This document shows positions 11,629-60,223 of a stretch of DNA of 64,000 bases, piece after piece. The translations under genes were made by a program, and so were the position numbers. The stretch covers positions 11,198-75,197 of the forward strand of contig CAVOXY010000056.1 of NCBI GenBank assembly GCA_963700515.1. The letters are read 5' to 3'. Position 1 is the first letter of the stretch. Every line of letters begins with the position of its first letter. This DNA is from an uncultured Planctomycetota bacterium (GTDB lineage: Bacteria > Planctomycetota > Planctomycetia > Pirellulales > Pirellulaceae). The notes under the pieces were generated by a model. That model saw nothing but the letters and a program-made list of their open reading frames with translations. It did not search any database and had not been told where the DNA came from.

Positions 11629-11699
11629 GTTATTGGTCGACTAGCGCGGCGTTGGGCCGCAAAGGACAAGGTCGTTGGCAAATCGGATTCGGAAAACGC

Positions 11700-11950
11700 C
11701 CAACCGGTCGCACGAATAGCGCGGCCCGTTGGGCCTCGGTCTTTAATGGGAACGCACCCAGGCCTCGCTTGCTACGGCCTGGGCTGGCATCGCGGCCCCT
11801 TGGGCCGGAACGCGACTTCAGCTCGCGCAGGCCTGGGCGGCATGCGGCCCCTTGGGCGGGATCCACGTTCTCGCAGGCCTGCGCATATCGGCTGCGGCAC
11901 GGGGCCTGGTTGGGCGGCCATTGGCCGTCGGTGAGCACTGCGTGCAAACA
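11700..11950. repeat. Cluster of REP family-1-like palindromic units
   Basis: CCTGGGCTGGCATCGCGGCCCCTTGGGCCGG and GCGCAGGCCTGGGCGGCATGCGGCCCCTTGGGCGGG closely resemble units of the 26-29 kb arrays (CTGGGCTGGCATAGCGCGCCCCGTTGGGGCGG; GCGCAGGCCTGGGCAAACCGG). Confidence 0.7.
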
Positions 11951-11972
11951 TGGCACGAGGTGCAGTGGCACA

Positions 11973-25270: not shown

Positions 25271-25504
25271 CTAAAACAGCGTGTAGATGAACGGCGCGAG
25301 GGCCGTGCTGGACAGAAAGACGAATACCCCCAGAACGACCAGCGTCAGGATGATGGGTAATAGCCACCACTTCTTGTTGTAACGCAAGAAATCCCAGAAC
25401 TCGCGCAGCAGACCAGGCTGCCGGCCCTCGGCGAACCGGTCCAATTCACCGTTCTCGAGCGGCTGCGGAGTGTCGACTGGATCAGGTTGCTTGGCGCTCA
25501 TCAC
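25271..25504 (-). CDS. DUF5989-family small membrane protein
   Basis: 77 aa. LLREFWDFLRYNKKWWLLPIILTLVVLGVFVFL...APFIYTLF is the characteristic DUF5989 sequence. It lies immediately downstream of SxtJ. Confidence 0.8.
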   Translation of the reverse strand: MMSAKQPDPVDTPQPLENGELDRFAEGRQPGLLREFWDFLRYNKKWWLLPIILTLVVLGVFVFLSSTALAPFIYTLF

Positions 25505-25511
25505 ATGTCAC

Positions 25512-25931
25512 TCAGAACTGACGAAAGTACCTCGACCGGTCCGACGGCATGTCACGCGGCTCCCAATACGACTCGCGCTGGACGTCGAATTTGCGCTGCA
25601 GCGGTTCCCGTCCCAGCCATCGCATCACCAGCGCGATGGGAGTCAGCACGAGAAAGAATATCACGCCGACCACCACATGGCCAATCACCCAGCCCACGGG
25701 ATAGGCCGCATAGATCCAGCCCACGTAGGCCGGGCGCACCACCGCCGGGCGGACCAACCCCGCCACGCAAATCGCCGCCGCGATCACCGCCACGATCCAA
25801 GCAGCGGTGGGGTGAGCCAGACGCCAAGCCAGGATCACCGCCGCCACCAGCCCGACGAGCGGTAACACGACGCCGGCGAATTGACGCAACTGTCGATCGG
25901 TCGGGTTCGTGTTGATCTCAATCAAAGCCAT
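25512..25931 (-). CDS. SxtJ-family membrane protein
   Basis: Start at the ATG at 25931 (MALIEINTNPTDRQLRQFAGVVLPLVG...). The upstream part of tracked ORF 25512..26150 runs into REP repeats. C-terminal ...LVLTPIALVMRWLGREPLQRKFD is typical of SxtJ. Confidence 0.75.
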   Translation of the reverse strand: MALIEINTNPTDRQLRQFAGVVLPLVGLVAAVILAWRLAHPTAAWIVAVIAAAICVAGLVRPAVVRPAYVGWIYAAYPVGWVIGHVVVGVIFFLVLTPIALVMRWLGREPLQRKFDVQRESYWEPRDMPSDRSRYFRQF

Positions 25932-26049
25932 GGTCGCGGCAGGTTCCGGCAAGGCCAACGGTCGTGATGCAGGTTCTAGTTTAGCACACCGACGCAACCG
26001 AGATAGTGGAACCCAGTCACGATTGCCCAAACCCAGTTGCAGCCGGCTG

Positions 26050-27293
26050 GCAGCGCGCTGCCAGGCCCAGGGCTGCGCAGGCCAGGCCCAAAGGGCCGCG
26101 CTACCAGCCCAGGCCGCAGCGAAGCGCAGGCCTGGGCAACCGGCCTCCACCTGGCTCCCAGGCCCAAAGGGCCGCTAGGCCAGGCCCAAAGGGCGCTATG
26201 CCAGCCCAGGCCGCAGCGAAGCGCAGGCCTGGGCAAACCGGCCTCCACCTCGCTCCCAGGCCCAAAGGGCCGCGCTAATCGAGGTCGACCCGATACGATC
26301 GATCCGCCGAACGCATTAGCGGCGCCCCGTTGGGGCTCCGAGCATGGTGGTGGGCGTCCTACCCAGGGCGGCGGTCGGCCGCCGTTGGCGGCCTCCCTTC
26401 GCCCTGGGCTGGCATAGCGCGCCCCGTTGGGGCGGATGATGGACGCCGGATTGCAGGCCTGGGCAAACCGGCCTCCACCTGGCTCCCAGGCCCAAAGGGC
26501 CGCGCTAGGCCAGGTGCAGGCCGCAGCGAAGCGCAGGCCTGGGTAGACCGGCCACCATCTCGCCCCCAGGCCCAAAGGGCCGCGCAATCGAGGTCGACCC
26601 GATACGATCGATCCCCCGAACGCGTTAGCGCGCCCCGTTGGGGCTCCGAGCATGGTGGTGGGCGTCCTACCCAGGGCGGCGGTCGGCCGCCGTTGGCGGC
26701 CTCCCTTCGCCCTGGGCTGGCATAGCGCGCCCCGTTGGGGCGGATGATGGACGCCGGATTGCAGGCCTGGGCAAACCGGCCTCCACCTGGCTCCCAGGCC
26801 CAAAGGGCCGCGCTAGGCCAGGTGCAGGCCGCAGCGAAGCGCAGGCCTGGGTAGACCGGCCACCATCTCGCCCCCAGGCCCAACGGGCCGCGCTAATCGA
26901 GGTCGGCCCGATACGATCGATCCGCCGAACGCATTAGCGCGCCCCGTTGGGGCTCCGAGCATGGTGGTGGGCGTCCTACCCAGGGCGGCGGTCGGCCGCC
27001 GTTGGCGGCCTCCCTTCGCCCTGGGCTGGCATAGCGCGCCCCGTTGGGGCGGATGATGGACGCCGGATTGCAGGCCTGGGTATACCGGCCTCCATCTCGC
27101 TCCCAGGCCCAAAGGGCCGCGCTATGCCAGCCCAGGCCGTAGCGAAGCGCAGGCCTGGGCAAACCGGCCACCACCTCGCTCCCAGGCCCAAAGGGCCGCG
27201 CTATACCAGGTGCAGGCCGTAGCGAAGCGCAGGCCTGGGCAAACCGGCCGCCACCTCGCTCCCAGGCCCAAAGGGCCGCGCTAGGCCGGTGAG
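26050..27293. repeat. REP family-1 array (left flank of RAYT), higher-order period about 307-310 bp
   Basis: AATCGAGGTCGACCCGATACGATCGATC recurs at 26278, 26588 and 26895. Each long unit contains short palindromic sub-units (AGGCCTGGG..CCCAGGCC, GGCCCAAAGGGCC, GCCCCGTTGGGGC). All six-frame ORFs here are repeat artefacts. Confidence 0.9.
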
Positions 27294-27302
27294 AAACCGC
27301 GT

Positions 27303-27758
27303 TTAGTCCCAAACGTATCGTTCGTCCAATTCGACGCCATGTCGAGCGCAAATTGCTCGAAACTCCTCCTGAAACGTCATGCGTTTGTGATGTTCTTTCT
27401 GATTGCGAATGTATTCCCGCACCGAATCGATTTGCGACAGGCTCACTGAGAACACGCCATAACCAGCTTGCCAGTGAAAGTCCCGGTATTGTCGGCCCTT
27501 CTTCTTGATCCATTTTGACGAGTCGGTCTTGATCCTGCTAATCAATGTCTTGATGGCATAGTTGCGTGACAGAAAACACAGGATGTGTATGTGATCCTCC
27601 GTCCCGTTGATGATGACTGCCGGTGAGTCGAGCGATTTCAGGCACGTCGCCACGTATTTGTACAGTTCGTCGCAATGGCCAGTATCACGCAGGAACGGTT
27701 TTCGGTTTTTCGTACTGTAAGTGATGTGGATAGCCACCCGGGCATGGGATTGCGGCAT
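27303..27758 (-). CDS. REP-associated tyrosine transposase (RAYT; IS200/Y1 HUH family)
   Basis: 151 aa. IHITYSTKNRKPFL, HUH motif EDHIHILCF, WQAGYGVFSVS and catalytic-Tyr region YIRNQKEHHKR are typical of the Y1_Tnp/RayT family. Flanked on both sides by REP arrays. Confidence 0.8.
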   Translation of the reverse strand: MPQSHARVAIHITYSTKNRKPFLRDTGHCDELYKYVATCLKSLDSPAVIINGTEDHIHILCFLSRNYAIKTLISRIKTDSSKWIKKKGRQYRDFHWQAGYGVFSVSLSQIDSVREYIRNQKEHHKRMTFQEEFRAICARHGVELDERYVWD

Positions 27759-27890
27759 GTCGGCCTCCGGTCGTTTGGTGTGGTAGGTGAAATTCGCAAT
27801 TCACGGTTGGTTCCTCTAATGGTTCATCGCGAACGGCGCGCGAAACCCTTCACGGGTCGGCCAGAATTTCGATTTTTTTTTCAGATCGTT

Positions 27891-29022
27891 GGCGCGCCCC
27901 GTTGGAGCGGATGATGGACGCCGAATTGCAGGCCTGGGCAAACCGGCCATCCACCTGGCTCCCAGGCCCAAAGGGCCGCGCTAATCGAGGTCGGCCCGAT
28001 ACGATCCATCCGCCGAACGCATTAGCGCGGCCCCGTTGGGGCTTCGTGCGTGGTGGTGGCGTCCTACCCAGGGCGGCGGTCGGCCGCCGTTGGCGGCCTC
28101 CCTTCGCCCTGCACCTGGCATAGCGCGGCCCCGTTGGGGCGGATGTTGGACGCCGGATCGCAGGCCCGGGTATCCGGCCTCCATCTGATTCTCTGGCCCG
28201 AACGCCGCCGCGCTACACCAGGCCGCAAAGGGCCGCGCGCTATGCCAGGTGCAGGCCGCAGCGAAGCGCAGGCCTGGGCAGACCGGCCACCACCTGGCTC
28301 CCGGGCCCAAAGGGCCGCGCTAATCGAGGTCGGCCCGATACGATCCATCCGCCGAACCCGTTAGCGCAGCCCCGTTGGGGCTTCGTGCGTGGTGGTGGGC
28401 GTCCTACCCAGGGCGGCGGTCGGCCGCCGTTGGCGGCCTCCCTTCGCCCTGGGCTGGCATAGTGCGCCCCGTTGGGGCGGATGACGGTCGCCGGATCGCA
28501 GGCCCGGGTATCCGGCCTCCATCTCATTCTCTGGCCCAACGCGCCGCGCTAGGCCAGGTGCAGGCCGTAGCAAAGCGCAGGCCTGGGTAGACCGGCCTCC
28601 ATCTCGCTCCCAGGCCCAAAGGGCCGCGCTATACCAGCCCAGGCCGCAGCGAAGCGCAGGCCTGGGCAAACCGGCCTCCATCTCGCTCCCAGGCCCAACG
28701 GGCCGCGTGAATCGAGGTCGGCCCGATACGATCCATCCGCCGAACGCGTTAGCCGCGCCCCGTTGGGGCTTCGTGCGTGGTGGTGGGCGTCCTACCCAGG
28801 GCGGCGGTCGGCCGCCGTTGGCGGCCTCCCTTCGCCCTGGGCTGGCAGAGCGCGCCCCGTTGGGGCGGATGATGGACGCCGGATTGCAGGCCTGGGTAAC
28901 CGGCCTCCACCTCGCTCCCAGGCCCAAAGGGCCGCGCTAGGCCAGGTGCAGGCCGTAGCGAAGCGCAGGCCTGGGCAAACCGGCCTCCACCTCGCTCCCA
29001 GGCCCAACGGGCCGCGCTAATC
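27891..29022. repeat. REP family-1 array (right flank of RAYT), same orientation as left array
   Basis: AATCGAGGTCGGCCCGATACGATCCATCCGCCGAAC recurs at 27983, 28321 and 28708. A truncated copy at 29019 abuts the carbamoyltransferase 3' end. Confidence 0.9.
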
Positions 29023-30901
29023 GAGTTGGAAGCTCAGCCAGATATTGGTCCATCTCGTGCCGAGTTGCATCCGGCTGCTGGGACTTCAGCAGCAGATAGT
29101 GTCCCATGACCAATGCGTCCATGTTCGTGGCCAGGAAACACCGATACGCTTCCGGGGGCGCACAGACAATCGGCTCGCCGCGGATGTTGAAGCTGGTGTT
29201 GATCAGCACCGCACAACCGGTCTTGCCGCTCGAAAGGCTTCGAGCAGCCGATGGTAGAGCGGATTGCGTTGGCGATCGACGGTCTGCACGCGAGCCGAAT
29301 AGTCGACGTGGGTAACGGCCGGAATATCCGAGCGGATCTCATTGCGTAATGCCAGGGATCGCTCGGGTTCTTCCTGTCCGGTACGTACCGATTCAACTCG
29401 GTCCTGCCAGATTGAGCTGTGGGGTGTCACACACCGCTCGCCCTTCACCGGTGCGACCAGCAGCATGTAGGGACTGGACTGGTCGGGCGGCATCGCAAAA
29501 TACTCGTGCACGCTGTTCCTGCAACACGGACGGCGCAAACGGCCGAAACGACTCGCGAAACTTGATCTTCAAGTTCATCACGGCCTGCATCTGCGGGTTG
29601 CGCGCGTCACCCAGGATACTGCGGCTTCCCAGCGCCCGCGGACCGAACTCCATCCGTCCCTGCATCCAACCGACCACGTTGCCGTCCGCCAGCAGGTCGG
29701 CCACACGATCGCAGAGCTGCTGCGTCATCTCGAGTCGCTGGTGCACAGCGCCCTGCTCGCTGCAAGAACGCCAAGATCTCGTCGTCCGAAAAGGCCGGCC
29801 CCAGCCGCGAACCTTGCTGGCTGTCGAGCGTCGTCGATTTGCCGCGGTTGGTCCATCAGCTGATGCCAGATGAACAGTGCCACTCCCAACGCTCCGCCCG
29901 CGTCCCCGGCCGCCGGCTGGATCCACAACTGCTCGAACGGTCCTTCCCGCAAGATGCGACCGTTGGCCACGCAGTTGAGCGCCACGCCGCCGGCCAGGCA
30001 GAGCTTGGTCATACCCGTCGCGCGATGCACGTGCTGCGGCCATCCGCAACATGATCTCTTCGGTCACCAGCTGGATCGAGGCGGCCAGATCCATCTCGCG
30101 CTGCGTGATCGGCGACTCGGCTCTCCGCGGCGGGCCGCCAAACAACTGCTCAAACCGCCGATTGGTCATCGTCAAGCCCTGGCAGTAATTGAAGTACCGC
30201 ATGTCCATTCGAAACGAACCGTCGGACTTGATATCCAACAACCGGTCGCGAATCAGCTCGGCATACGTCGGCTCGCCATAGGGTGCCAGCCCCATCAGCT
30301 TGTACTCGCCCGAGTTCACGCGGAATCCGCAGAAGTAGGTGAAGGCGCTGTAGAGCAGCCCGAGCGAATGCGGGAAATCGAGCTGGTGGGTCAACTCGAT
30401 GCGGTTGCCGCGTCCGGTCCCCAGCGAAGCGGTCGCCCATTCCCCCACCCCATCGACGGTCAGAATCGCCGCTTCTTCAAACGGCGACGGGAAGAAAGCG
30501 CTGGCCGCATGCGACTGGTGATGGTCCGTGAACACGAACCGCTTACGATACTGGCCGTGCAGACCGCGTCGCATCTCGCGCGGCAAATGCAGCTTGGTCC
30601 GCAGCCAGAGCGGCATGGCCATCAGGAACGAACGGAAGCCGCGCGGAGCATAAGCCAGGTAGGTCTCCAACAAACGATCGAATTTCAGAAACGGCTTGTC
30701 GTAGAACCCCACCACATCCAGGTCACCGGTCTCAAGTCTCGCTTCGTGCAAGCAGTACTCGATCGCGTGCTGCGGGAAATTGAAGTCGTGCTTCTTCCGC
30801 GTAAATCGCTCTTCCTGCGCGGCGGCCACGATCCGGCCGTCGATCACCAGCGCCGCCGCCGAATCGTGATAGAACGCCGAAATGCCGAGGATTGCCGTCA
30901 C
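28937..30901 (-). pseudogene. NodU/CmcH-family carbamoyltransferase, at least 4 frameshifts as read; 3' end runs into REP repeat
   Basis: 29393..30901 starts MTAILGISAFYHDSAAALVIDGRIVAAAQEERFTRKKHD. It continues in 29725..30030 (KLCLAGGVALNCVANG...IQPAAGDAGGALG), returns to the first frame (VGWMQGRMEFGPRALGSRSILGDARNP), then continues in 29203..29538 (IPAVTHVDYSARVQTV) and 28937..29209 (LINTSFNIRGEPIVCAPPEAY). Confidence 0.85.
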
Positions 30902-31126: not shown

Positions 31127-31236
31127 GAATGCGGAATGCGGAATGCGGAATGCGGAATGCGGAATGCGGAATGCGGAATGCGGACCGGAATGCGGAATGC
31201 GGAATGCGGAATGCGGAATGCGGAATGCGGAATGCG
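31127..31236. repeat. Heptamer array (GAATGCG)n, about 15 units
   Basis: Read directly. One interruption (GACCGGAATGCG) near 31176-31185. Confidence 0.95.
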
Positions 31237-33503: not shown

Positions 33504-33930
33504 ACTTCACCTAATCGGTATCCGAGCAAAAGGAATCACAGTTTTTTTCGGAACATCGGGAAAGACCCGTAAGATCGGCAAGTTGAGGATACTAGGCGCA
33601 TTCGACGATTCGATGGCCGGTCAGGGACTGGCTGTGACTTGGTAAGACGTAACGGCAAATGGAACATCCGGGAGCCGGGTGAGCATGCGGCGATGCGCAG
33701 GAAAGGGATAGTCCCATTTCTGCTCCGCTCGCCGCTGCAGCCGCGTCGGGTTCATCCCGGCGGACTGAGGATTGGCCGGCGACAGGCGATGGATGCCAAC
33801 CAGTGGTCGAGCTGTCACAGGGATGCGCTCGGCCGAGGCCGAAACAGGCCGCGGCTCGAGTCGGTCTCGAACGTGTGCCGGCGTCGATGGACACGTCGGG
33901 GAGCTCGACTCGACGGTGTGTCATGGTGCG

Positions 33931-34127
33931 ACGGTAGCGGACCAGTTGTGGCCCCGCCGGGATGAACCCGACGGAAGCCGGAAGTGGTGGATGCGCACGG
34001 TAGCGGACCAGTTGTGGCCCCGCCGGGATGAACCCGACGGAAGCCGGAAGTGGCGGATGCCGCACGGTTGCGGACCAGTTGTGGCCCCGCCGGGATGAAC
34101 CCGACGGAAGCCGGAAGAGCCGACTTT
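33931..34127. repeat. 66-67-bp tandem repeat x3
   Basis: ACGGTAGCGGACCAGTTGTGGCCCCGCCGGGATGAACCCGACGGAAGCCGGAAGTGG.GGATGC starts at 33931, 33997 and 34064. An inverted partial copy (CCGCGTCGGGTTCATCCCGGCGG) lies at 33742-33764. Confidence 0.9.
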
Positions 34128-36982: not shown

Positions 36983-37802
36983 CTAGAGGCAACAGACGGC
37001 ACTTGGCTCGGGCAGCCCGGCAATCGACTGGAGATGCAGCAGGCGTCGATAGGCGTTCTGACTACCGGGAACGATCAGCACATACAGACAACCGTCACTC
37101 TTCCAGATCCCGACACAGAGATTGCCAGTGGTCGAGTCGGGAATGGCCGACGGAAACTTCGGCAAGTGGCGTCCGAGTCGCGTGCGAATCACCAGCAGAT
37201 AGGCAGACGACTGAGCCGGCGGGACGCTGGCTAAATACGCCACGGCATGTGAATCCCCCAACGCCAACGCCGAAAACTCCTGCCAACCCACCATCGGGAA
37301 CTGCAGCTGCTGGTTCCGCGGCAACCGATCACTTGGCGGTTGAGTCTCCTGCCAGGCTTCCGGATCCAATTTGCCGAGCCACTCGCGAGCGTACTGATCG
37401 ACCTGCGCGACGGTGAGCGTATCGCGCCAGACGAGCAACATAAACGACGACCGCCAACAGGGCCGCGACAGACAACACCGCCCCGGCAGTACTAAGCCAC
37501 CAGAGTCCGCTCGATCCGGTGCCGCCACGAACACCAGCGGGCGTCACCAGCTCGCCGCCCGGCACGGCCTGCTGCCCAGGTTCCTGCTCCACCGCCGCCA
37601 ACAGCCGATCACCCAGACCAGCAGGGACCGGAACATCTCGCATCGCTCGCTGAATCGCCCCGTCCCAGGCCTGAATCGCCTGCAACTCAGCACCTAACGC
37701 CGGATCTTCGGACACCGCCCGCAACAGCGCAGCCATGTCCGGATCAGCCGATTCGGTCGGCTCCGAGCGATAGCATTCCATGAGTTTGCGGAGGTTAGTC
37801 AT
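36983..37802 (-). pseudogene. Anti-sigma factor (single TM), one frameshift as read
   Basis: ORF 37329..37802 has an N-terminal anti-sigma-like domain and a TM helix (WWLSTAGAVLSVAALLAVVVYV). ORF 36983..37534 supplies the extracytoplasmic C-terminal domain. It lies directly downstream of the ECF sigma. Confidence 0.6.
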
Positions 37803-37900
37803 TGGTTATTGGTCACTGGTCACTTGGTTATTGGTCATTGGTCATTGGTCATTGGTCATTGGTCTATTCCGCATTCCGCATTCCGCATTCCGCATTCCCT
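37800..37900. repeat. Heptamer arrays (CATTGGT)n 37800-37865 followed by (ATTCCGC)3-ATTCCCT-AATCGTT 37866-37900
   Basis: Read directly. On the minus strand the last ACCAATG unit supplies the anti-sigma start codon (ATG at 37802). Confidence 0.95.
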
Positions 37901-39073: not shown

Positions 39074-39109
39074 ACGAGCATCTCCCCAAGAGATGCTCGT
39101 TTTTTTTTG
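39074..39109 (+). terminator. Rho-independent terminator
   Basis: ACGAGCATCTC-CCCAA-GAGATGCTCGT stem-loop followed by T9. Confidence 0.85.
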
Positions 39110-39187
39110 GTCATTGGTCATTAGTCATTAGTCATTGTCATTAGTCATTGGTCACTGGTCATTCGGTATTGGTTATTGGTTGGTGGT
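39109..39187. repeat. Heptamer array (CATTGGT/CATTAGT)n, arm 1 of inverted pair
   Basis: Read directly. It degenerates into CGGTATTGGTTATTGGTTGGTGG at the loop side. Confidence 0.95.
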
Positions 39188-39327
39188 TACTTGACAGATA
39201 CCGGTTAGTGCTTGACAGTTGACGGGGGGCGTGCCGGGGCGGATCGGTGCAATACCAGATGAGTCCTTACACTGCCTCTTGTGTCGCACTGCTCGGTAAC
39301 TCGTCGCCATCCCTCCGCCATCGCGAA

Positions 39328-39430
39328 ACCAACCGATGACCAATGACCAATGACTAATGACAATGCAAGTGACAAGTGACCAATGACCAATGACCAATGA
39401 CCAATGACCAATGACCAATGACCAATGACC
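39328..39430. repeat. Heptamer array (ACCAATG/ACTAATG)n, arm 2 of inverted pair; contains the uvrB start codon
   Basis: Reverse complement of arm 1, including the irregular units CATTGT-CATTAGT-CATTGGT next to the loop. Confidence 0.95.
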
Positions 39431-41497
39431 ATCCCTTTGAACTTTGCGCCCCGTACCAACCGGCTGGTGACCAGCCGCAGGCGATCGAGGCTTTGGTGGA
39501 CGCCATCCGGCAGGACCGGCGCCGGCAAGTGCTGTTGGGCGTCACGGGGTCGGGCAAGACATTTACGATGGCCAATGTGATCCAGGCGATCCAGAAGCCA
39601 ACGCTGGTCATCTCGCACAACAAGACCCTCGCCGCTCAGCTTTATTCGGAGTTCCGCGACTTCTTTCCCCATAATTCGGTTCATTACTTCGTCAGCTATT
39701 ACGACTACTACCAGCCCGAAGCCTACATCCCTCAGCGGGACATCTACATCGAAAAAGATGCGTCCATCAATGAAGAAATCGATCGGCTCCGGCTCGCGAC
39801 CACCAGTGCGTTGGTGAGCCGCAGGGATGTGATTGTGGTGGCCAGTGTGTCGAGTATCTACGGGCTCGGTTCGCCGGACGATTACCGCGAGATGATGGTC
39901 GCCTTGGAGCGCGGCGGCCAGATTGACCGTGATGAGATGCTGGCGCGACTGATTGACATTCAGTACGAAAGAAACGACATCAGTTTCGAGCGTGGCCGGT
40001 TTCGCGTCCGGGGCGACTGTGTGGAGATCTGGCCCTCGTACGAGGAGTACGCGGTCCGTGTGGAGCTATGGGGGGACGAGATCGATCAGCTGTCGCTGCT
40101 CAACCCGACCAGTGGCGAGACGATTTCGGTGCAGGATCAGTTATTCATCTACCCGGCCAAGCACTTCGTGATGCCGGAGGAGCGGATTGAGGGCGCGGTC
40201 AAGTTGATCAAACAGGAACTGGATGAGCAACTGGAAAAGTTCCGCCAGGAAGGAAAATTGCTCGAGGCGCAGCGGTTGAGCGCACGCACGCGGTTCGATA
40301 TGGAAATGCTGCTGCAAGCGGGGGTGTGTCCGGGCATCGAGAACTACAGCCGACCGCTGTCCGGTCGCTCGGCCGGCGAGCCGCCTGACACGCTGTACGA
40401 TTTCTTCCCGCACGATTTCCTCCTGTTCGTCGACGAATCACACGTCAGTATTCCGCAAATCCGCGCGATGTTCGCTGGCGATCAGAGCCGCAAACGGACG
40501 TTGGTCGAGCATGGCTTTCGATTGCCCAGCGCGATGGACAACCGGCCCTTGAAGTTCGAAGAATGGGAACAGCGGGCACGTCAAGCCGTGTTCGTGTCGG
40601 CCACGCCTAGCGATTACGAGCTACAACAGACGGGCGGGGAGGTGGTGGAGCAGATCATCCGGCCGACCGGCTTGCTCGACCCGATCATTGAAGTCGTGCC
40701 GGCCCGCAACCAGGTCGTACACCTCCTGGAGGAGATCCGCCAGCAGGGCGAAAATCGGCGAACGGGTCCTGGTGACCGCCCTGACCAAACGACTGGCCGA
40801 AGATCTCTCGGCGTATTTCAGCGAGCAAGGAGTGGCCTGCAAGTGGCTGCATAGTGAGCTGGATGCGTTTGAGCGAGTCGATCTGCTGCGCGACCTGCGC
40901 GAAGGGCGCTTTGAGGCATTGGTCGGAGTGAATCTGCTGCGCGAAGGACTCGACCTCCCCGAAGTGTCACTGGTCGCCATTCTGGATGCCGACAAGGAAG
41001 GGTTCCTCCGCAGCGAAACGTCACTGATCCAAACGATCGGCCGAGCCGCTCGGAACGTCAATGCCAAGGTCATTCTCTATGCCGATAAAATCACCAATTC
41101 CATGCGGCTGGCGATCGACGAGACGAATCGACGTCGAGCGATGCAGGAGGCCTACAACAAAGAGCATGGCATTACGCCCGAGACGATTCGCAAAAACATC
41201 CGAGCGGGCATCGAATCCGACGTGGCAGCTCACCGAGCGGCCAATGCCGCGGTGGGACGAGCGGACGAGGAGCAATACGTGACGGCCGAGTACATGAACG
41301 AGCTGGAGGCCGAAATGCTCGAAGCAGCCGAACAACTGGAATTCGAACGAGCAGCCGCGATCCGCGACCGACTCATGCAACTCAAAGAACACGTCGGTAA
41401 GAAACTCAACCAGGTCGAAGTCAGCTCGTACAAACCCCGTGGCCGCCGCCACAGTTCCGGCTCGTCACAGAAAGTCCCCCGGCCAGGGAAGAAGTAG
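39418..41497 (+). pseudogene. uvrB: Excinuclease ABC subunit B, one frameshift as read
   Basis: 39418..40854 starts [27 protein letters not shown]...[15 protein letters not shown]. 40688..41497 continues [25 protein letters not shown]...[27 protein letters not shown]...[14 protein letters not shown]. The shift is at CAGCAGGGCGAAAAT, about 40745-40760. Confidence 0.9.
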
Positions 41498-41498
41498 A

Positions 41499-41543
41499 GT
41501 CATTGGTCATTGGTCATTGGTCATTGGTCATTGGTCACTGGTC
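41499..41543. repeat. Heptamer array (CATTGGT)n, arm 1
   Basis: Starts 2 nt after the uvrB stop. Confidence 0.95.
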
Positions 41544-41650
41544 CAACTTGTTCCGAACCCATCGTAAGTCGTTGCGCACCTTGACTTATCGTACTACATG
41601 CTGAGCATCGAAATCGTGCACCTTGCGCCGCTGTGGTTCACGACCCCCAC

Positions 41651-41712
41651 TGACCAATGACCAATGACTAATGACTAATGACCAATGACCAATGACACAA
41701 TGACCAATGACT
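41651..41712. repeat. Heptamer array (GACCAAT/GACTAAT)n, arm 2
   Basis: Inverted relative to 41499-41543, with a 107-nt spacer. CTTGACA follows directly. Confidence 0.95.
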
Positions 41713-43684: not shown

Positions 43685-43741
43685 CTACTCACTACTCACT
43701 ACTCACTACTCACTACTCACTACTCACTACTCACTACTCAC
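43685..43741. repeat. Heptamer array (CTACTCA)x8
   Basis: Read directly. Its reverse complement is the GTGAGTA family seen at 46931. Confidence 0.95.
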
Positions 43742-44298: not shown

Positions 44299-46939
44299 AT
44301 GAGAATACCGGCGATCATGTCTTCTCGGTGTATGTGGCTGATCTATGTTTCCGTGCTCGTCAGCCTTGTTATCCAAACAGGTTGCAGTCGACGCCGCTTT
44401 CGCCTGGCAGCCGACGACCAGGCACAGGAGTTGATTGCCGAGAAGGGTGCCATGTGCCCGGATTGGGCGCTGCGCGACTGGAGCGTCTATGGTGACCAGC
44501 GCAGTCGCTACTACGACAACTGCAACCCCGACGGTCCTCCGATGCCACCCGACGACCCGTTGTCCCACGAGTTCATGTGCGAAGTGGATGGCATGAAGGG
44601 CTGGAAGCACTGGAACGACTTCGGCGTGCGCAGCCAGTTGGACAATAAGCGTTGGCGCGAACAGCTCGTGCAGTACGCCGAGTTCAACGAGAAGGACGAA
44701 GTGGTGCTGGATATTAACTCGGCACTTCAGCTGGCCCTGATCCATTCGCCATCGTACCAGCAGCAACTCGAAACCATTTACTTATCGGCGCTGGACGTCA
44801 GTACGGAACGGTTTCGGTTTGAAGTCCAGTTCTTTGGCGGCAACGGCACGCGTTTCACGCACGAGGGACGACTCGTCGGTAATCCTCTGCCGTCGAACCG
44901 CGGAGTGGGACTTGGTGGGACGCGGAACACGTCGAGCGGCGAGCGGAACTTGTTGCGCAACTCGTCCGACGTCTGGATGGAAAAGCAGTTCGCGACAGCC
45001 GGCGAGTTGGCGGTTGGGTTTGCCAACTCGATCGTGTGGACGTTTGCCGGCCCCGATACCAATGCCACCGGCTCCCTGCTCAATGCCAACCTGGTCCAAC
45101 CGTTGCTGCGCGGAGCGGGCCGGGACGTGGCGTTGGAACAGCTGACGATTGTCGAGCGGGCCTTGCTGGCCAACCTCCGCGCGTACCAGCGTTATCGCCA
45201 CGGATTCTATACGCAAGTGGCGGTCGGAGAACTGGGTGTCTCCGGCCCGTCGCGCCGTGGCGGCTTCTTCGGCGGCACGGGCTTGACCGGTTTCACGGGC
45301 CAAGGCTCCGGCGGTCTGGGTGGTGTCGGCTCGGCGACCGGCTTCGGCCGCTCCGGGTTCAGTACCGGCGGTACGGGAGGCGGCACGGGTGGCGGGACAG
45401 GCCTGGCAGGCGGTGGTGCCGGGATCGTGGGCGGCTTCATCGGACTGCTGCAGCGGCTGCAGGAGATCCGCAACACCGAAGACAGTCTCGCCCTGCAATT
45501 GAACCAGCTCGCCAAGTTGGAAGCCTACCACAGGGCGGGTTTGATCACGCTGATCCAAGTCGACAACTTGCGGCAGAACGTCGAGACCGAGCGGGCCAAT
45601 CTGCTGCAGTCGCAAAATGCTTTCGAAGCCACCCTCGATTCGTTCAATACCAACACCATGGGGCTCCCCCCCGATCTTCCCGTGGCGCTGAACGACAGTC
45701 TGATTCGCCAATTCCAGTTCCTCGATCCACGCGTCACTACGATGTCTCGCGAGTTGTCGATCTTGCGGTCGTCCGTGGGCGACCTCCCGGCCACGCCCAG
45801 CATCGAACAGCTGACGACCGCCGTCGCAACCGCCCGCGGTATCGAACAGAAGTTGGGGAATCACTTCGACAATATTCATGACGACTATGCCACGCTCGAC
45901 CAGCGGACCCCCGCGCGATTCACCACCTTGCCGCCAACGGAAGTCGAACGGTTACAGAGCGAAATGCAACAAGAAACGCGAGAAGCTGGCCGAAATCGAG
46001 TCCCGCTACGCGCGCTTCAAAGAAGAACTCGACGCCATCAACGACGGAGTGACCCCGGACAACGTTACCGAGTCACTCGGGACATTGGTGGAGTGGCTTG
46101 GCGCATTCGACCGGCTGATCGAGGAAGCATCGCTGGTCCAGGCCCGAGCGCGACTGGAGTCGGTCATTATGGAACCGATTCATCTGGCATCGCAAGAAGC
46201 GCTCCAGATCGCGCAAGCCAATCGGCTCGATGTGATGAACAACCGGGCGGCCCTCGTCGATTCGTGGCGATTGATCGCCTTCAACGCCGACGCGTTACAG
46301 TCCGACCTGACCGTGAATCTCGGTGGCGATATCAGCACCACCGGCAATAACCCACTCAAATTCCGCAGTCCCACCGGATCGATGCGAGCATCCCTGCAGA
46401 TCGACGCGCCCTTCACGCGACTGTTGGAACGTAACAACTATCGCCAGTCGCTGATCGACTATTCTCAAGATCGACGGCAGTATATCCAGTTCATGGACGG
46501 CATTCACCAGACGTTGCGGAACCTGCTGCGGAACCTGGAACAGCTGCAAACGAACCTGGAAATCCAACGCCGCGCGGTGGCCATCTCGATCCGCCGAGTG
46601 GACCTGACACGCGAGAACCTGTCGCAACCCCGACCACCGGCAGCACCCGGCGAACCTCCGGCCATGTTCGGCGATACGGCCGCCATGGACCTGCTCAACG
46701 CACTGTCCGATCTGCGTAATACCCAAAACAACTTCATGAGCGTCTGGTTGAACCATTACGCCACGCGGATGGTGCTCGAACGCGACCTCGGGATCATGGA
46801 ATTGGACGAAGACGGCCGCTGGATCGAACAACCCGGACGTTTGCCTCAGCCCAGCGATCTGGAGGACCTTGAACTGCCGCCACCGGTCCCCCAAAGCCTG
46901 ATCGAAGAACTCGACCACGCCGTTGCCGTTAGTGAGTAG
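44299..46939 (+). pseudogene. TolC-family outer membrane efflux protein with Gly-rich insert, one frameshift as read
   Basis: The ATG at 44299 gives lipoprotein-type signal LVSLVIQTGCS. SALQLALIHSPSYQQQLETIYLSALDVSTERFRF and LVQPLLRGAGRDVALEQL are in 44212..46350. ALQIAQANRLDVMNNRAALVDSWRL...LQIDAPFTRLLERNNY is in 45878..46939. The shift is near 45950-46000. Confidence 0.75.
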
Positions 46940-47013
46940 TGAGTAGTGAGTAGTGAGTAGTGAGTAGTGAGGAGTGAGTAGTGAGGAGTGAGGAGTGAGG
47001 AGTGAGGAGTGAG
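46931..47013. repeat. Heptamer array (GTGAGTA)x5 then (GTGAGGA)x5
   Basis: It begins at the last codons of the TolC-like gene. The stop TAG is part of the first unit. Confidence 0.95.
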
Positions 47014-47288: not shown

Positions 47289-47755
47289 CATTCCGCACCC
47301 CGCACCCCGCACTCCGCACCCCACACCCCACACCCCACATTCCGCATTCCGCATTCCGCATTCCGCACTCCGCATTCCGCACTCCGCACTCCGCATTCCG
47401 CATTCCGCATTCCGCATTCCGCACCCCGCACCCCACACCCCACACCCCACACCCCACATTCCGCATTCCGCACTCCGCATTCCGCACCCCGCACTCCGCA
47501 CTCCGCACCCCGCATTCCGCACTCCGCACCCCGCACTCCGCACCCCGCACCCCGCACCCCGCACCCCGCATTCCGCACCCCGCACCCCGCACTCCGCACC
47601 CCGCACCCCGCACCCCGCACCCCGCACCCCGCACTCCGCACTCCGCACCCCGCACCCCGCACTCCGCACTCCGCACTCCGCACTCCGCATTCCGCATTCC
47701 GCACTCCAAACCCCGCACTCCGCATTCCGCACTCCGCATTCCGCATTCCGCATTC
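47289..47755. repeat. 467-bp heptamer array, about 66 units of CAYYCCR (CATTCCG, CACTCCG, CACCCCG, CACCCCA)
   Basis: Parsed unit by unit. The phase is kept except for one irregular stretch near 47706-47713. A short inverted partner AGGGAATGCGCAATGCGGAAT lies at 47198-47218. The long ORFs here (PHSAFRIPHSAF...) are repeat artefacts. Confidence 0.95.
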
Positions 47756-50277: not shown

Positions 50278-50386
50278 ACTGGTCATTGGTCAGTCTGGTC
50301 ATTGGTCATTGGTCACTGGTCATTGGTCATTGGTCACTGGTCATTGGTCACTGCGTGCATTGAGTCATTGGTCATTGGTCATTGGC
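50278..50386. repeat. Heptamer array (CATTGGT/CACTGGT)n, arm 1
   Basis: Starts 7 nt after the adaptor stop. Confidence 0.95.
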
Positions 50387-50430
50387 ATGGTTCGGCTGAC
50401 TCAATACCAAGTGCATCCTCCGACCCTTAC

Positions 50431-50517
50431 AAATGACTAGTGACTAGTGACTAGTGACCAATGACTAGTGACAAATGACTAATGACTAGTGACTAATGAC
50501 TAGTGACCAACCACCAA
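50431..50517. repeat. Heptamer array (TGACTAG/TGACCAA/TGACTAA)n, arm 2
   Basis: Inverted relative to arm 1, with a 44-nt spacer. It ends 20 nt before the permease start. Confidence 0.95.
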
Positions 50518-53724: not shown

Positions 53725-53785
53725 CTGGTGGTCACTGGTCACTGGTCATTGGTCATTGGTCACTGGTCACTGGTCACTGGCTATT
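53725..53785. repeat. Heptamer array (TGGTCAC/TGGTCAT)n, arm 1
   Basis: It abuts the amidase start codon (53722) and reads ACCAGTG/ACCAATG in the sense of that gene. Confidence 0.95.
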
Positions 53786-53942
53786 GACTTTGGTCTCCTA
53801 GGGTTCACTTCAGGACGATGGTGGAGGGAATTGATCAAGGGAATCGCATGTCGTCATTACGATCCAATTCCGTCCACGCGAGCGTCGCCGGAGTGGTGTG
53901 TGGGATGCGTCGCCGGCCACTGCCAGCGACACACCTGACATA

Positions 53943-54016
53943 GTGACCAATTGAAGCAATGACAAGTGACCAATGACCAATGACCAATGACCAATGACCA
54001 ATGACCAATGACCAAT
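53943..54016. repeat. Heptamer array (GACCAAT)n, arm 2
   Basis: Inverted relative to arm 1, with a 157-nt spacer. It lies just downstream of the leuD stop. Confidence 0.95.
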
Positions 54017-54038: not shown

Positions 54039-54650
54039 CTAACCGCTGACGATCCCCCGTTCTCGCTCGTACTGAGTGATTTTCTCCTCTTGCTGCAGCG
54101 TCACAGCGATATCATCGAGGCCCTCGAGGAGCGATTGTTGGCGGAACGGATCGATGGAGAAGCTGACATCCAGCTGCCCTGCGTCGGAGATACGACAGTT
54201 CTCCAGATCGATCAGCAGCTGGTATCCGGGCGTCTGGGCGACGAGTTGAAAGACCTGCTCAACCGTCTCCTCTGGCAGGCGAATGGGCAGCACGCCGTTC
54301 TTGAAGCAGTTGTTGTAGAAGATATCGGCAAAGCTGGGAGCAATCACCGCTCGCAATCCGTAGTCGGCCAAGGCCCACACCGCATGCTCACGGCTGGAAC
54401 CAGAACCGAAATTACGTCGCGAAACGAGGATCGATGCGCCCTGGTACTGCGGTTGATTCAGCTCGAACTCAGCGTTGTCGCTGCCATCTTCGTGGAATCG
54501 CCAATCGAAGAACAGAAACTGGCCGAACCCGGTCCGTTCGATCCGTTTGAGGAATTGCTTGGGAATAATCTGATCGGTATCGACGTTCGCTCGATCGAGC
54601 GTCGCCACCAGTCCACGATGTTTGCGGAACGGTTCCATGGTATTTTTCAC
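54039..54650 (-). CDS. leuD: 3-isopropylmalate dehydratase small subunit
   Basis: MEPFRKHRGLVATLDRANVDTDQIIPKQFLKRIERTGFGQFLFFDWRF...ILVSRRNFGSGSSREHAVWAL. The likely start is the ATG at 54638. Confidence 0.9.
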   Translation of the reverse strand: MKNTMEPFRKHRGLVATLDRANVDTDQIIPKQFLKRIERTGFGQFLFFDWRFHEDGSDNAEFELNQPQYQGASILVSRRNFGSGSSREHAVWALADYGLRAVIAPSFADIFYNNCFKNGVLPIRLPEETVEQVFQLVAQTPGYQLLIDLENCRISDAGQLDVSFSIDPFRQQSLLEGLDDIAVTLQQEEKITQYERERGIVSG

Positions 54651-54774
54651 CTACGTAGAACGGACTTCAGTCCGTTCCATGCGTTTGGTTGCGAGTTAAA
54701 TTCAGGATACGAAGAAGCAAGGGTCGAGCGTCCTCGGGATGGAGATCCTTTTCGCCAGCGGACTGCAGTCCGTG

Positions 54775-56164
54775 CTACGTATAGTTCCAAGCGCGGATGT
54801 CGACCAGGTGTCCGGTGATGGCGGCGGCGGCGGCCATGGCGGGGGAGACGAGGTGCGTGCGGCCACCTTTTCCCTGCCGGCCTTCGAAGTTGCGATTACT
54901 TGTCGAGGCACATCGTTCACCCGGTGCGAGCTTGTCCGGGTTCATGGCCAGGCACATACTGCACCCCGCTTCACGCCACTCAAAACCGGCCTCCCGAAAG
55001 ACGCGATGCAGGCCTTCATTTTCGGCTTGGGCTTTCACCGGAGCGCTGCCCGGCACGACCATGGCGCTCGACGTGCGGCGACACGTGGTGACCGCGGACG
55101 ACTGCCGCCGCGGCCCGCAGGTCCTCGATGCGCGAGTTGGTGCAGGAACCGATGAACACGCGGTCGATCGTGATATCGGTCATCGGAGTGCCGGGCTCCA
55201 ATCCCATGTACTGCAAGGCGTGGGCGGCCGATTTCCGCTGCGTCTCATCGGCGAAATCGGCGGGATCGGGCACTCGATCCACCACCGGCACGACCTGGCC
55301 GGGGTTCGTGCCCCACGTGACCTGAGGAGCGATCCGTGCGGCATCGAATTGGCGGACGATATCGTACTGTGCACCCTCATCGCTGGGCAGTTGCTCCCAC
55401 CGAGCGACCGCCGCATCGAAGTTGGCGGGTGCGTACTTGCGGGACTGCAGGTAGTCGAACGTGGTCTGATCGGGAGCGATCATGCCGGCGCGCGCCCCGG
55501 CCTCGATCGACATATTGCAGACCGTCATCCGCTCTTCCATGCTCAACGCCCGAATGGCGCTGCCGGTGTACTCGAGCACATAGCCCGTTCCGCCATCGGT
55601 CGTCAGCTGGCCGATCAAGTACAGGATCAGGTCCTTGGCGGTCACGCCGCGTGCGAGCAGGCCGTTGCAACGCAATTCCATGGTCCGCGGCTTGGATTGC
55701 AGCAGTGTCTGGGTCGCCAGCACGTGCTCGACTTCGCTGGTCCCGATGCCGAACGCCAGCGCCCCAAAGGCTCCGTGCGTGGCCGTGTGACTGTCGCCAC
55801 AGACGATCGTCATCCCGGGCTGCGTGTAACCCAGTTCGGGGCCAATCACGTGCACAATTCCCTGCTGTGGGTCGTTCAGATCGTACAGCCGGATCCCGAA
55901 CTGCTCACAGTTGTTGCGCAGCGTGTCGACCTGCTGGCGAGAAATCGGGTCCTCAATCGGCTTGTCCCGGTCGGTGGTCGGGATATTGTGGTCGGGCGTG
56001 GCAATCGTCAGTTTCGGACGTCGCACCTGACGGCCAGCCAGTCGCAGCCCCTCGAACGCCTGGGGACTGGTCACTTCGTGGACCAGGTGCAGGTCGATGT
56101 AGAGGATCGTCTGCTTGCCCGGTTCCGCGTGGACAACGTGGCTGTCCCAGATCTTCTGGAACAT
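54775..56164 (-). pseudogene. leuC: 3-isopropylmalate dehydratase large subunit, one frameshift as read
   Basis: [11 protein letters not shown]...[13 protein letters not shown]...[24 protein letters not shown] is in 55016..56194. The C-terminus [29 protein letters not shown] is in 54775..55062. The shift is near 55060-55090. Confidence 0.9.
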
Positions 56165-56285
56165 GGTACGCGGCAGAGAAGGCGGTGAAACCATCGGAGT
56201 ATCCGTCTAGAGCTAAAAGAATGAGTGCTGAGTTTGAGCCCCAAGTATAGTGGACTGACCGTAATTCAAGTAGGTGCGTTCGGCC

Positions 56286-60218: not shown

Positions 60219-60223
60219 ACGAC

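What the first reader, a model, noticed from the sequence alone, without database searches (positions are those of the whole stretch)
26050..29022. REPtron-like locus 1: RAYT gene embedded in about 2.4 kb of hierarchically organised REP arrays
A 151-aa Y1/HUH transposase (HIHIL, YIRNQKEHH) is flanked by 1.24 kb and 1.13 kb of repeats. The repeats have two levels: 50-80-bp palindromic sub-units (AGGCCTGGG/CCCAGGCC, GGCCC-AAA-GGGCC, GCCCC-GTT-GGGGC) nested in a 307-340-bp higher-order unit that recurs about 3 times on each side. Both flanking arrays are in the same orientation on the + strand, unlike the inverted arrangement I recall for proteobacterial REPtrons. RAYT/REP systems are well described in gammaproteobacteria. 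I am not aware of a described planctomycete example, nor of one with this higher-order array structure.
Basis: partly seen in the sequence, partly recalled or inferred. Interest (0 to 1): 0.65.

Follow-up and report, generated by a model that had tools for sequence, protein, structure and literature searches.

The report
Hairpin-repeat array around IS200-like transposase gene
A small single-strand-DNA transposase gene in a planctomycete sits inside 2.4 kb of its own hairpin repeats, and related genomes show the pairing is real and conserved; it is a REP/RAYT-like system built on a transposase subclass that the literature lists as having no such repeats.

Summary
A 151-aa Y1/HUH gene (27303-27758, minus strand) lies between 1.24 kb and 1.13 kb of structured repeats.

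The repeats are not a plain hierarchy. The basic piece is a roughly 100-nt "arm" of three hairpins. Two are 5-bp/3-nt-loop hairpins, each followed by GCGCTA, and a CCCAGG...CCTGGG hairpin lies between them. Arms occur in both orientations. A forward arm, a 37-nt centre and a reverse arm form a gene-less doublet that folds as a long palindrome. The locus is six such doublets plus one gene-bearing unit, all in one polarity, with extra 80-bp modules.

The same arms flank homologues of the gene as inverted repeats in 7 of 7 relatives chosen without regard to repeats. They also occur as dispersed gene-less doublets in another planctomycete genome.

The protein is not a canonical RAYT. It carries the signature of Quentin et al. 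(2018) subclass 1.2 (DHIH, WQ, YIRNQKEHH), which that paper lists as having no REPs.

The locus is a 3-kb insertion into an operon junction that is 5 bp long in a relative.

Best reading: a REPtron/TIRtron-like system with local amplification. This is a new variant of a known kind. The mechanism is inferred, not shown.

The parts
27303..27758 (-). Y1/HUH single-strand-DNA transposase-like gene, 151 aa. It fits subclass 1.2 of Quentin et al. 2018 (DHIH, WQ, YIRNQKEHH, conserved C-terminal tail ...DERYVWD).
   Evidence: DHxH, WQ, Y116, Q120 and H123-H124 are invariant in 12 homologues (alignment A1).
27759..27887 (-). About 129-nt non-repeat leader upstream of the gene, AT-richer, with an A9 tract. 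A leader of similar length, also carrying an A-rich tract, is present in the closest relative (L001/L002).
   Evidence: No sigma-70-like promoter match.
27888..27926 (+). Truncated reverse arm directly upstream of the gene: TGGCGC + GCCCC-GTT-GGAGC hairpin + 19-nt linker. Read on the gene strand it is hairpin + GCGCCA, the same orientation as the upstream arm in relatives.
   Evidence: weak nhmmer hit 27888-27908.
27265..27290 (+). Forward hairpin+foot (GGCCC-AAA-GGGCC GCGCTAGGCCGG) directly downstream of the gene. It is inverted relative to the upstream element.
26181..26442 (+). Gene-less doublet 1: forward arm, 37-nt centre, reverse arm.
   Evidence: nhmmer arm hits 26181-26282(+) and 26312-26442(-). 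96% identical to doublets 2 and 3.
26486..26750 (+). Gene-less doublet 2. As single-stranded DNA it folds into a long imperfect palindrome.
   Evidence: Fold of 26497-26813: -102.4 kcal/mol, z=-4.15.
26795..27059 (+). Gene-less doublet 3.
   Evidence: 98.5% identical to doublet 2.
27069..27287 (+). Run of 80-bp forward modules (foot, CCCAGGCC..GGCCTGGG hairpin, spacer, small hairpin), 2.7 copies.
   Evidence: (family D4).
26039..26180 (+). Left edge of the array: palindrome CTGGCAGCGCGCTGCCAG (26047-26064) and degenerate forward modules.
   Evidence: (family D9).
27927..28148 (+). Gene-less doublet 4 (forward arm partial).
28221..28485 (+). Gene-less doublet 5.
28609..28875 (+). Gene-less doublet 6, preceded by one extra forward module (28524-28632).
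28885..29026 (+). Terminal forward arm. Its last foot (GCGCTA, read TAGCGC on the minus strand) overlaps the native TAG stop codon of the carbamoyltransferase gene.
11712..11812 (-). Solo degenerate arm of the same family in the 11629-11972 intergenic region, 14 kb from the locus. Partial repeats of it lie beside it.
   Evidence: E=2.9e-13, 43.9 bits.
29021..30901 (-). Flanking gene: carbamoyltransferase, split into three reading frames (probably sequencing errors).
25271..25931 (-). Flanking genes SxtJ-like (25512-25931) and DUF5989 (25271-25504). They directly follow the carbamoyltransferase gene in relatives.

Best explanation
This is a REPtron/TIRtron-like system. A Y1 HUH protein of the IS200-proximal subclass 1.2 is paired with its own hairpin repeats.

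Shown:
- The repeat 'arm' is about 100 nt: small hairpin, GCGCTA foot, CCCAGG..CCTGGG hairpin, about 22 nt of spacer, small hairpin, GCGCTA foot.
- In relatives one arm lies upstream of the gene and its reverse complement lies downstream.
- Arm plus reverse arm without the gene forms a doublet resembling a REPIN or MITE.
- The window locus is six such doublets and one gene-bearing unit in the same polarity, plus iterated 80-bp modules. It is inserted at the stop codon of a carbamoyltransferase gene, in an operon junction that is 5 bp long in a relative.

Inferred:
- By analogy with IS608 TnpA and E. coli TnpAREP, the protein binds the folded hairpins on single-stranded DNA and reads the conserved foot (minimal core CTA, or TAG on the other strand).
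- It cuts and rejoins there, which mobilises and duplicates arms and doublets in trans.
- The array grew by such recombination, by unequal crossing-over between the near-identical hairpins, or by both ('local amplification').
For: Anatomy:
- 16 forward and about 12 reverse hairpin+foot elements.
- 10 forward and 6 reverse full arms by profile search.
- The doublet folds as a long palindrome, z=-4.15.

Conserved pairing:
- Arms of the window align with the arms flanking homologues in eight other planctomycete loci and with doublets in MAG CAZDHN01.
- 12 of 117 loci retrieved by the repeat motif alone carry the gene next to the motif, including Acidobacteriota.

Structure under selection:
- Fully complementary stem variants of the small hairpin: GCCCC/GGGGC, GGCCC/GGGCC, GTCCC/GGGAC, GCTCC/GGAGC, GCCCT/AGGGC.
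- At least 6 such variants of the larger hairpin.

Dispersal:
- Gene-less doublets on at least 21 contigs of CAZDHN01.
- One solo arm elsewhere in the window.

Insertion:
- The carbamoyltransferase-to-SxtJ gap is 5 bp in L125/L126 and 3005 bp here.

Protein:
- Catalytic DHxH and Y are intact and invariant.
- No TnpB nearby.

Precedent:
- E. coli TnpAREP cleaves and recombines BIMEs, and 'local amplification' was proposed for them (PMC3333891).
- Cognate REP recognition depends on the stem-loop and a conserved adjacent motif (PMC8266576).
Against: - No biochemical or population evidence here that this protein acts on these hairpins.
- Only one extra arm in the other 61 kb of the window, so genome-wide dispersal in the source organism is unknown. 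The source genome was not recovered.
- In the closest relative the gene itself is multi-copy: 4 tandem copies plus one at a second site with an identical protein. That looks more like an insertion sequence than a domesticated single-copy RAYT.
- The array could have grown purely by homologous recombination or slippage.
- The centre of the doublets shows no significant homology to the gene unit, so the doublets cannot be shown to be deletion derivatives of this copy.
Confidence: 0.6

Rival explanations
1. It is an autonomous insertion sequence. The unit arm-gene-arm (about 0.85 kb, with roughly 100-nt hairpin-rich terminal inverted repeats) moves as a whole. The gene-less doublets are its MITEs. 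The arrays here are a passive by-product of unequal recombination between repeated hairpins, not of the protein's activity.
For: - The gene with its arms sits in a different gene context in every genome examined, for example between a PSCyt2/PSD1 gene and a DUF1501 gene and inside a cas operon.
- The closest relative has at least 5 copies encoding an identical protein at two sites.
- 100%-identical 300-nt segments recur at a 1536-bp period there.
- The protein is nearest to IS200/IS608 TnpA: NF033573 scores 51.6 against a cut-off of 55, and IS608 TnpA is the best solved relative.
Against: - IS200/IS605 elements have no terminal inverted repeats and use hairpins in direct orientation on one strand. 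Here the arms are inverted.
- Quentin et al. found subclass 1.2 to be low-copy and not IS-like.
- Only one copy occurs in the 64-kb window.
- This rival overlaps strongly with the best explanation. They differ mainly in whether the gene moves with the arms.
Confidence: 0.25
2. The hairpin array has been taken over by the host. It would act as a transcription terminator or insulator, an mRNA-stabilising element or a protein-binding site between the carbamoyltransferase and SxtJ genes. The transposase gene would be incidental.
For: - The array starts exactly at the stop codon of the upstream gene.
- In relative L124 the same junction holds a different GTAG-tagged hairpin repeat, so this junction tolerates or attracts hairpin repeats.
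- Known REPs have such host roles (abstracts of PMC3733652 and PMC3479197).
Against: - One or two hairpins would be enough for such roles, not 28.
- The arms are tied to the Y1 gene across genomes whatever the neighbouring genes are.
- There are no T-runs after the hairpins.
Confidence: 0.07
3. The tandem array is wholly or partly an assembly artefact of an error-prone assembly.
For: The window has frameshifts in housekeeping genes: the carbamoyltransferase gene is in three frames and leuC is truncated. This indicates a noisy assembly, in which tandem-repeat copy number can be mis-estimated.
Against: - The units differ from each other by 1.5-8% with unit-specific substitutions.
- Two different periods and partial modules are interleaved.
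- Relatives from independent assemblies show the same kind of clusters (L001, L127).
Confidence: 0.05

Closest known systems
REPtron: TnpAREP/RAYT gene flanked by REP/BIME (Nunvar 2010; Ton-Hoang 2012, PMC3333891)
   Same: - A Y1 HUH gene is flanked by short GC-rich hairpins that carry a conserved unpaired tag next to the stem.
- The elements next to the gene are inverted.
- The same hairpins form inverted doublets and clusters elsewhere.
- Variable local amplification beside the gene was described for E. coli.
   Different: - The protein is outside the RAYT clade: Y-x3-Q rather than Y-x3-NP, and NF047646 scores 31.8 against 80.
- The repeat unit is a three-hairpin arm of about 100 nt, not a single 30-40-nt REP.
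- The tag is (GCG)CTA placed 3' of the hairpin, which reads TAGCGC 5' of it on the other strand, rather than GTAG.
- The gene is one unit of a same-polarity tandem array of doublets.
TnpA_Y1 subclass 1.2 (Quentin et al. 2018, PMC6006769)
   Same: - Signature DH[IV]H, WQ and YI[KR]NQKEHH.
- About 150 aa with a conserved C-terminal tail.
- Not accompanied by TnpB.
- Lacks typical IS200 ends.
   Different: - That paper lists the subclass as having no REPs and as found mostly in Cyanobacteria and Bacteroidetes.
- Here members from Planctomycetota and Acidobacteriota are consistently flanked by conserved hairpin arms.
TIRtron/TIRYT (Di Nocera et al. 2013, PMC3733652)
   Same: - A tyrosine-transposase gene is flanked by long terminal inverted repeats, some of them self-complementary.
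- Some of those repeats form moderately abundant families organised as dimers or clusters.
   Different: - The two R. baltica proteins seen in the passages read from that paper's supplementary alignment (rba11751, rba2408) do not carry the subclass 1.2 signature; the other proteins in that alignment were not checked.
- The arms here are made of REP-like tagged hairpins.
- No tandem array with an embedded gene is described there.
IS200/IS605 TnpA, for example IS608 and IS200 (subclass 1.1)
   Same: - Nearest by sequence.
- HUH and Y-x3-Q catalytic motifs.
- Small size.
- Hairpins near the ends of the gene-bearing unit.
   Different: - Falls just below the NCBIfam equivalog cut-off (51.6 against 55).
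- The ends are inverted repeats, not direct-orientation subterminal hairpins.
- No TnpB.
REPIN (Bertels and Rainey 2011, PMC3116915)
   Same: Two inverted repeat elements separated by a short spacer form a long hairpin. They are dispersed as non-autonomous units whose sequence matches the flanks of a Y1 gene.
   Different: - Each half is a three-hairpin arm.
- The partner protein is not a group 2 or 3 RAYT.
- In this window the doublets are tandem rather than dispersed.

Membership tests
RAYT / TnpAREP (class 2 Y1 transposases) | HUH motif and a single catalytic tyrosine | tested here: met
   D55-H56-x-H58 and Y116 are invariant in 12 homologues. Pfam Y1_Tnp scores 78.6 bits.
RAYT / TnpAREP (class 2 Y1 transposases) | RAYT-type tyrosine motif Y-x3-NP, and a score above the NCBIfam REP_Tyr_transpos cut-off | tested here: not met
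   The motif is YIRNQKEHH. NF047646 scores 31.8 bits against a cut-off of 80. No chain named as a REP-associated transposase (TnpAREP/RAYT) was found among solved structures at E<=1.
RAYT / TnpAREP (class 2 Y1 transposases) | Gene flanked by its cognate REPs, inverted relative to each other | tested here: met
   Window 27265-27290 (forward) and 27888-27908 (reverse). The same arrangement occurs in all relatives examined.
RAYT / TnpAREP (class 2 Y1 transposases) | The same REPs are dispersed in many copies through the host genome | tested here: inconclusive
   One solo arm in the other 61 kb of the window. At least 21 contigs carry doublets in relative CAZDHN01. The source genome was not available.
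RAYT / TnpAREP (class 2 Y1 transposases) | Single copy per genome and vertical inheritance | not testable with these tools
   One copy in the window. The closest relative has at least 5 identical copies. Gene context differs between genomes.
IS200/IS605 TnpA (subclass 1.1) | Score above the NCBIfam transpos_IS200 equivalog cut-off | tested here: not met
   NF033573 scores 51.6 bits against a cut-off of 55.
IS200/IS605 TnpA (subclass 1.1) | Subterminal hairpins in direct orientation on one strand, with no terminal inverted repeats | tested here: not met
   The arms are inverted repeats of about 100 nt.
IS200/IS605 TnpA (subclass 1.1) | Frequent companion tnpB gene | tested here: not met
   No TnpB-sized ORF or TnpB Pfam hit beside the gene in the window or in 9 relatives' loci.
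TnpA_Y1 subclass 1.2 (Quentin et al. 2018) | Motifs DH[IV]H, WQ and Y-x3-Q-x2-HH (YIKNQKEHH), with a median length of 148 aa | tested here: met
   EDHIHIL, HWQAGYG, YIRNQKEHH, 151 aa. These residues are invariant in alignment A1. The authors' own HMMs were not available, so the test is at motif level.
TnpA_Y1 subclass 1.2 (Quentin et al. 2018) | Conserved subclass-specific C-terminal tail of about 30 aa | tested here: inconclusive
   A conserved tail ...TFQEEFR...DERYVWD is present in all 12 homologues. It was not compared with the published tail profile.
TnpA_Y1 subclass 1.2 (Quentin et al. 2018) | No associated REP or secondary structures (as reported in the paper's Table 1) | tested here: not met
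   Arms flank the gene in 7 of 7 relatives sampled without regard to repeats, and in 10 further loci. This is the point of difference.
TIRtron / TIRYT (Di Nocera et al. 2013) | Tyrosine-transposase gene flanked by long terminal inverted repeats that can also occur as a repeat family in dimers or clusters | tested here: met
TIRtron / TIRYT (Di Nocera et al. 2013) | Protein belongs to one of the four TIRYT sequence groups | not tested
   Only fragments of the supplementary alignment were read. None of those fragments shows the subclass 1.2 signature.

The most novel reading that the evidence does not exclude
Subclass 1.2 Y1 proteins have thousands of homologues (6456 hits at E<=0.001) and are currently described as repeat-less and of unknown role. 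They may in fact be a third, independently arisen repeat-associated Y1 lineage. On this reading the lineage co-evolves with a conserved three-hairpin module across phyla (Planctomycetota and Acidobacteriota). Its HUH nicking activity, perhaps by priming local rolling-circle-like copying, would generate both dispersed doublets and the tandem higher-order arrays in which the gene itself is one repeat unit.
Probability: 0.3. Interest if true: 0.65.

Novelty: new variant of a known kind. Interest (0 to 1): 0.5.

Why it matters
REP/RAYT systems are the textbook case of a domesticated transposase living with its own non-autonomous repeats. So far they rest on the class 2 RAYT clade, mostly in Proteobacteria.

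Here an IS200-proximal clade shows the same lifestyle. This clade was reported as having neither IS ends nor REPs. The arm is recognisable across about 50% protein divergence and across phyla. That gives three things:
- A likely substrate for an orphan protein family.
- An intermediate form between IS200-type elements and REPtrons, useful for asking how domestication starts.
- A compact, sequence-defined system (151-aa protein plus a roughly 100-nt arm) that can be tested in vitro.

It also explains why this gene so often sits on very short metagenome contigs: the flanking repeats probably break assemblies.

Tried and rejected
- Rfam at gathering thresholds over the whole window gave no match, so the repeats are not a described RNA family.
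- There are no tRNA or tmRNA genes.
- An exact look-up of the window protein's contig found nothing on record.
- The scan of metagenome contigs with the window-specific 23-mer CCCAGGCCCAAAGGGCCGCGCTA gave 0 hits. A census of the source genome was therefore impossible.
- I tested whether the 37-nt centre of the doublets derives from the gene unit. The local alignment score fell within shuffles, so no support.
- A sigma-70 promoter scan of the leader found none.
- I considered that the arrays pre-existed and an ordinary IS200 landed in them. I rejected this because the same arms flank the gene in unrelated genomes.
- The last 9 nt of the carbamoyltransferase gene (CTCGATTAG) equal the inner junction of every doublet (CTCGAT + TAG of the foot). 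I considered this as evidence for a target site. Only about 4 nt lie beyond what the inverted repeat itself explains, so I leave it as an unexplained coincidence.
- I did not run structure prediction or the large representative search. The family assignment was already clear from motifs and HMMs.
Full report

Yes. ORF 27303-27758 on the minus strand encodes 151 aa containing EDHIHIL and YIRNQKEHH. It matches Pfam Y1_Tnp at 78.6 bits.

The flanks 26050-27290 and 27890-29022 are repeats.
- Tandem Repeats Finder reports period 308 x 3.3 copies (95% match) on the left.
- It reports period 388 x 2.1 on the right.
- An 80-bp period occurs on both sides.
- The repeat finder gives spacings of 308, 309, 340 and 388.
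- The core motifs occur 10-16 times where shuffles of the window give 0.00-0.04.

Rfam and tRNA searches are empty.

**2. What the repeats are made of**

The smallest element is a 5-bp stem with a 3-nt loop, directly followed by GCGCTA.
- On the plus strand there are 16 'forward' copies (GGCCC-AAA/AAC-GGGCC GCGCTA).
- There are about 12 'reverse' copies (TAGCGC GCCCC-GTT-GGGGC). These are the same element on the other strand with a compensatory G/C swap in the stem.

Two such hairpins with a larger hairpin between them (CCCAGGSC...GSCCTGGG) make an arm of about 100 nt. A profile built from arms finds the following in the locus:
- 10 forward arms;
- 6 reverse arms;
- one truncated reverse hairpin at 27888-27908.

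A forward arm, a 37-nt centre and a reverse arm make a doublet of about 260 nt. As single-stranded DNA it folds into one long imperfect palindrome (-102.4 kcal/mol, z=-4.15).

The '308-bp higher-order unit' is therefore one doublet plus a linker and a partial module. The '388-bp' unit is a doublet plus one extra 80-bp module. The six doublets are 92-98.5% identical to each other.

**3. Relation to the gene**

Read on the gene's strand, the element just upstream is hairpin+GCGCCA. The element just downstream is TAGCGC+hairpin. The immediate flanks are therefore inverted.

The upstream hairpin is of the GCCCC type and the downstream one of the GGCCC type. This is the same order as in each doublet read on that strand. 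The locus is thus a tandem series of seven units of one polarity, one of which holds the gene and a 129-nt leader.

**4. Is the pairing of gene and repeats meaningful?**

The protein search found 6456 homologues. The top 120 are 151-152 aa and 57-75% identical, and many sit on contigs of about 1 kb.

I fetched seven relatives chosen only for contig length: P0002, P0022, P0063, P0105, P0096, P0055 and P0036. All seven have arm-profile hits upstream on the + strand and downstream on the - strand.

- About half come from Planctomycetota.
- 12 carry a homologue of the gene directly beside the motif, including two from Acidobacteriota.

An alignment shows that the window's forward and reverse arms are homologous to these flanking arms.

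Both hairpins vary by compensatory changes.
- The small stem has five fully complementary versions.
- The larger stem has at least six.

In the MAG CAZDHN01, gene-less doublets of about 190 bp lie on at least 21 contigs. Their hairpins are conserved and their spacers vary. One gene copy in that MAG is flanked by the same arms.

The repeats are therefore the gene's own, not an array that an IS happened to hit.

**5. What the protein is**

- It falls just below the NCBIfam IS200 equivalog cut-off (51.6 against 55).
- It falls far below the REP-associated transposase model (31.8 against 80).
- The only solved relatives are IS608-type TnpA proteins (E=0.005), and no chain named as a REP-associated transposase (TnpAREP/RAYT) is among the matches.
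- Its motifs are DHIH, WQ and Y-x3-Q-x2-HH. With its length and conserved C-terminal tail, these match subclass 1.2 of Quentin et al. 2018 (PMC6006769). The authors describe that subclass as close to IS200 but not IS-like, low in copy number, without REPs, and found mainly in Cyanobacteria and Bacteroidetes.
- These residues are invariant in 12 homologues.
- No TnpB is present here or next to any relative.

**6. Genomic setting**

The locus separates a carbamoyltransferase gene from SxtJ-like and DUF5989 genes.
- In a Pirellulaceae relative with a 71% identical carbamoyltransferase, these genes are 5 bp apart.
- In another relative the gap is 223 bp and contains a different GTAG-tagged hairpin repeated twice.
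- Here the gap is 3005 bp.

The native end of the carbamoyltransferase (SFQLD, then TAG) is visible in a shifted frame. Its TAG is the TAG of the last repeat foot.

The carbamoyltransferase is split over three frames, and leuC is truncated. The assembly therefore carries indel errors. Small differences between repeat units should not be over-read.

Relatives of the Y1 gene sit in unrelated contexts:
- between a PSCyt2/PSD1 gene and a DUF1501 gene;
- inside a cas operon;
- next to uvrB.

The closest relative has four tandem gene copies at a 1536-bp period, plus another site with an identical protein.

**7. How it probably works**

Shown: the anatomy, the conservation, the compensatory changes, the dispersed doublets in a relative, and the insertion.

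Inferred: the mechanism. By analogy with IS608 TnpA and E. coli TnpAREP, the protein would recognise the folded hairpin together with the adjacent conserved foot on single-stranded DNA and cut and rejoin there. E. coli TnpAREP binds single-stranded REPs, needs the conserved tetranucleotide beside the stem, and recombines BIMEs in vitro (PMC3333891; PMC8266576). In more distant relatives the foot drifts to GACCTA, GTCCTA or GAACTA, so the conserved core is CTA/TAG.

Local amplification beside the gene was already proposed for E. coli REPtrons. Here near-identical inner and outer hairpins would also favour unequal crossing-over at 80-bp and 308-bp registers.

I put 0.6 on this reading. I put 0.25 on the closely related view that the whole arm-gene-arm unit is an active insertion sequence with MITEs and a passive array.

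**8. Comparison with what is known, and novelty**

REPtrons, REPINs and TIRtrons are known kinds. The window's second locus (57153-57728) resembles the R. baltica protein rba11751 from that paper.

Three things appear to be new:
- the partner protein belongs to subclass 1.2, which is listed as repeat-less;
- the repeat is a conserved three-hairpin arm shared across phyla;
- the gene is embedded as one unit of a same-polarity tandem array of doublets.

Literature searches found no description of this.

Verdict: new variant of a known kind, interest about 0.5.

**9. Limits**

- The source genome could not be retrieved, so dispersal in the source organism rests on one extra arm at 11712-11812.
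- The subclass assignment is at motif level.
- Nothing here shows activity.

Noticed in passing
window 56296-58335: A second repeat-flanked Y1-like gene. ORF 57153-57728 (+) has HIHLLW and YIARNPERKGLV motifs. It lies between a 44-nt x 10 array and a 49-nt x 12 array of GTAG-tagged hairpins (GTAGCTGAGCCCGCCAGGGCTCAGC; CTGAAGCCTCGGCGGCTTCAGCTAC). It has no Pfam hit at E<=0.001. By eye it resembles R. baltica rba11751 in Di Nocera et al.'s supplementary alignment. BLAST finds no similarity to the locus-1 protein.
   Followed up: partly
window 11629-11972: This intergenic region holds a degenerate solo arm of the locus-1 family (11712-11812, minus strand, E=2.9e-13), with partial repeats of the arm beside it.
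   Followed up: yes
window, many sites, e.g. 31127-31236, 37798-37898, 39107-39431, 41499-41711, 43685-43741, 46930-47013, 47292-47752, 50280-50507, 53729-54016, 60128-60220: More than 20 arrays of 7-nt tandem repeats with several unit sequences (GAATGCG, GTCATTG, CCAATGA, TAGTGAG, TCCGCAC x 66, and others) are scattered through the window. No explanation was sought.
   Followed up: no
window 28937-30901 and 54650-56194: The carbamoyltransferase gene is split over three reading frames. The leuC ORF covers only positions 1-379 of the 463-position aconitase profile. Broken genes of this kind, including a housekeeping gene, point to indel errors in the assembly rather than pseudogenes.
   Followed up: partly
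L124 5879-6101: In a relative, the same carbamoyltransferase-SxtJ junction holds two copies of an unrelated GTAG-tagged hairpin repeat (GTAGGGTGTGACAAGCTCGCCTCACACAACG...). This operon junction recurrently hosts hairpin repeats.
   Followed up: no
L127 2600-3720: Here a homologue of the Y1 gene, with five arms around it, lies inside a CRISPR-Cas operon, between a Cas3-like helicase gene region and a Cas_GSU0053 gene.
   Followed up: no
L001 1-7250: In the closest relative the gene and its arrays are themselves tandemly repeated: 4 copies at a period of 1536 bp, with 300-nt segments 100% identical. There are also 178-bp tandem arrays of reverse arms only.
   Followed up: partly
window 29012-29023 versus doublet centres, e.g. 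26271-26283: The last 9 nt of the carbamoyltransferase gene (CTCGATTAG) are identical to the inner junction of every doublet (CTCGAT followed by the TAG of the foot). This could reflect a target-site preference, capture of flanking DNA, or coincidence.
   Followed up: partly
window 33927-34117 and 61455-61628: Further short tandem or hairpin repeats are present. One is a 66-bp unit x 2.9. The other is a 42-bp unit x 2 that resembles the locus-2 hairpins.
   Followed up: no
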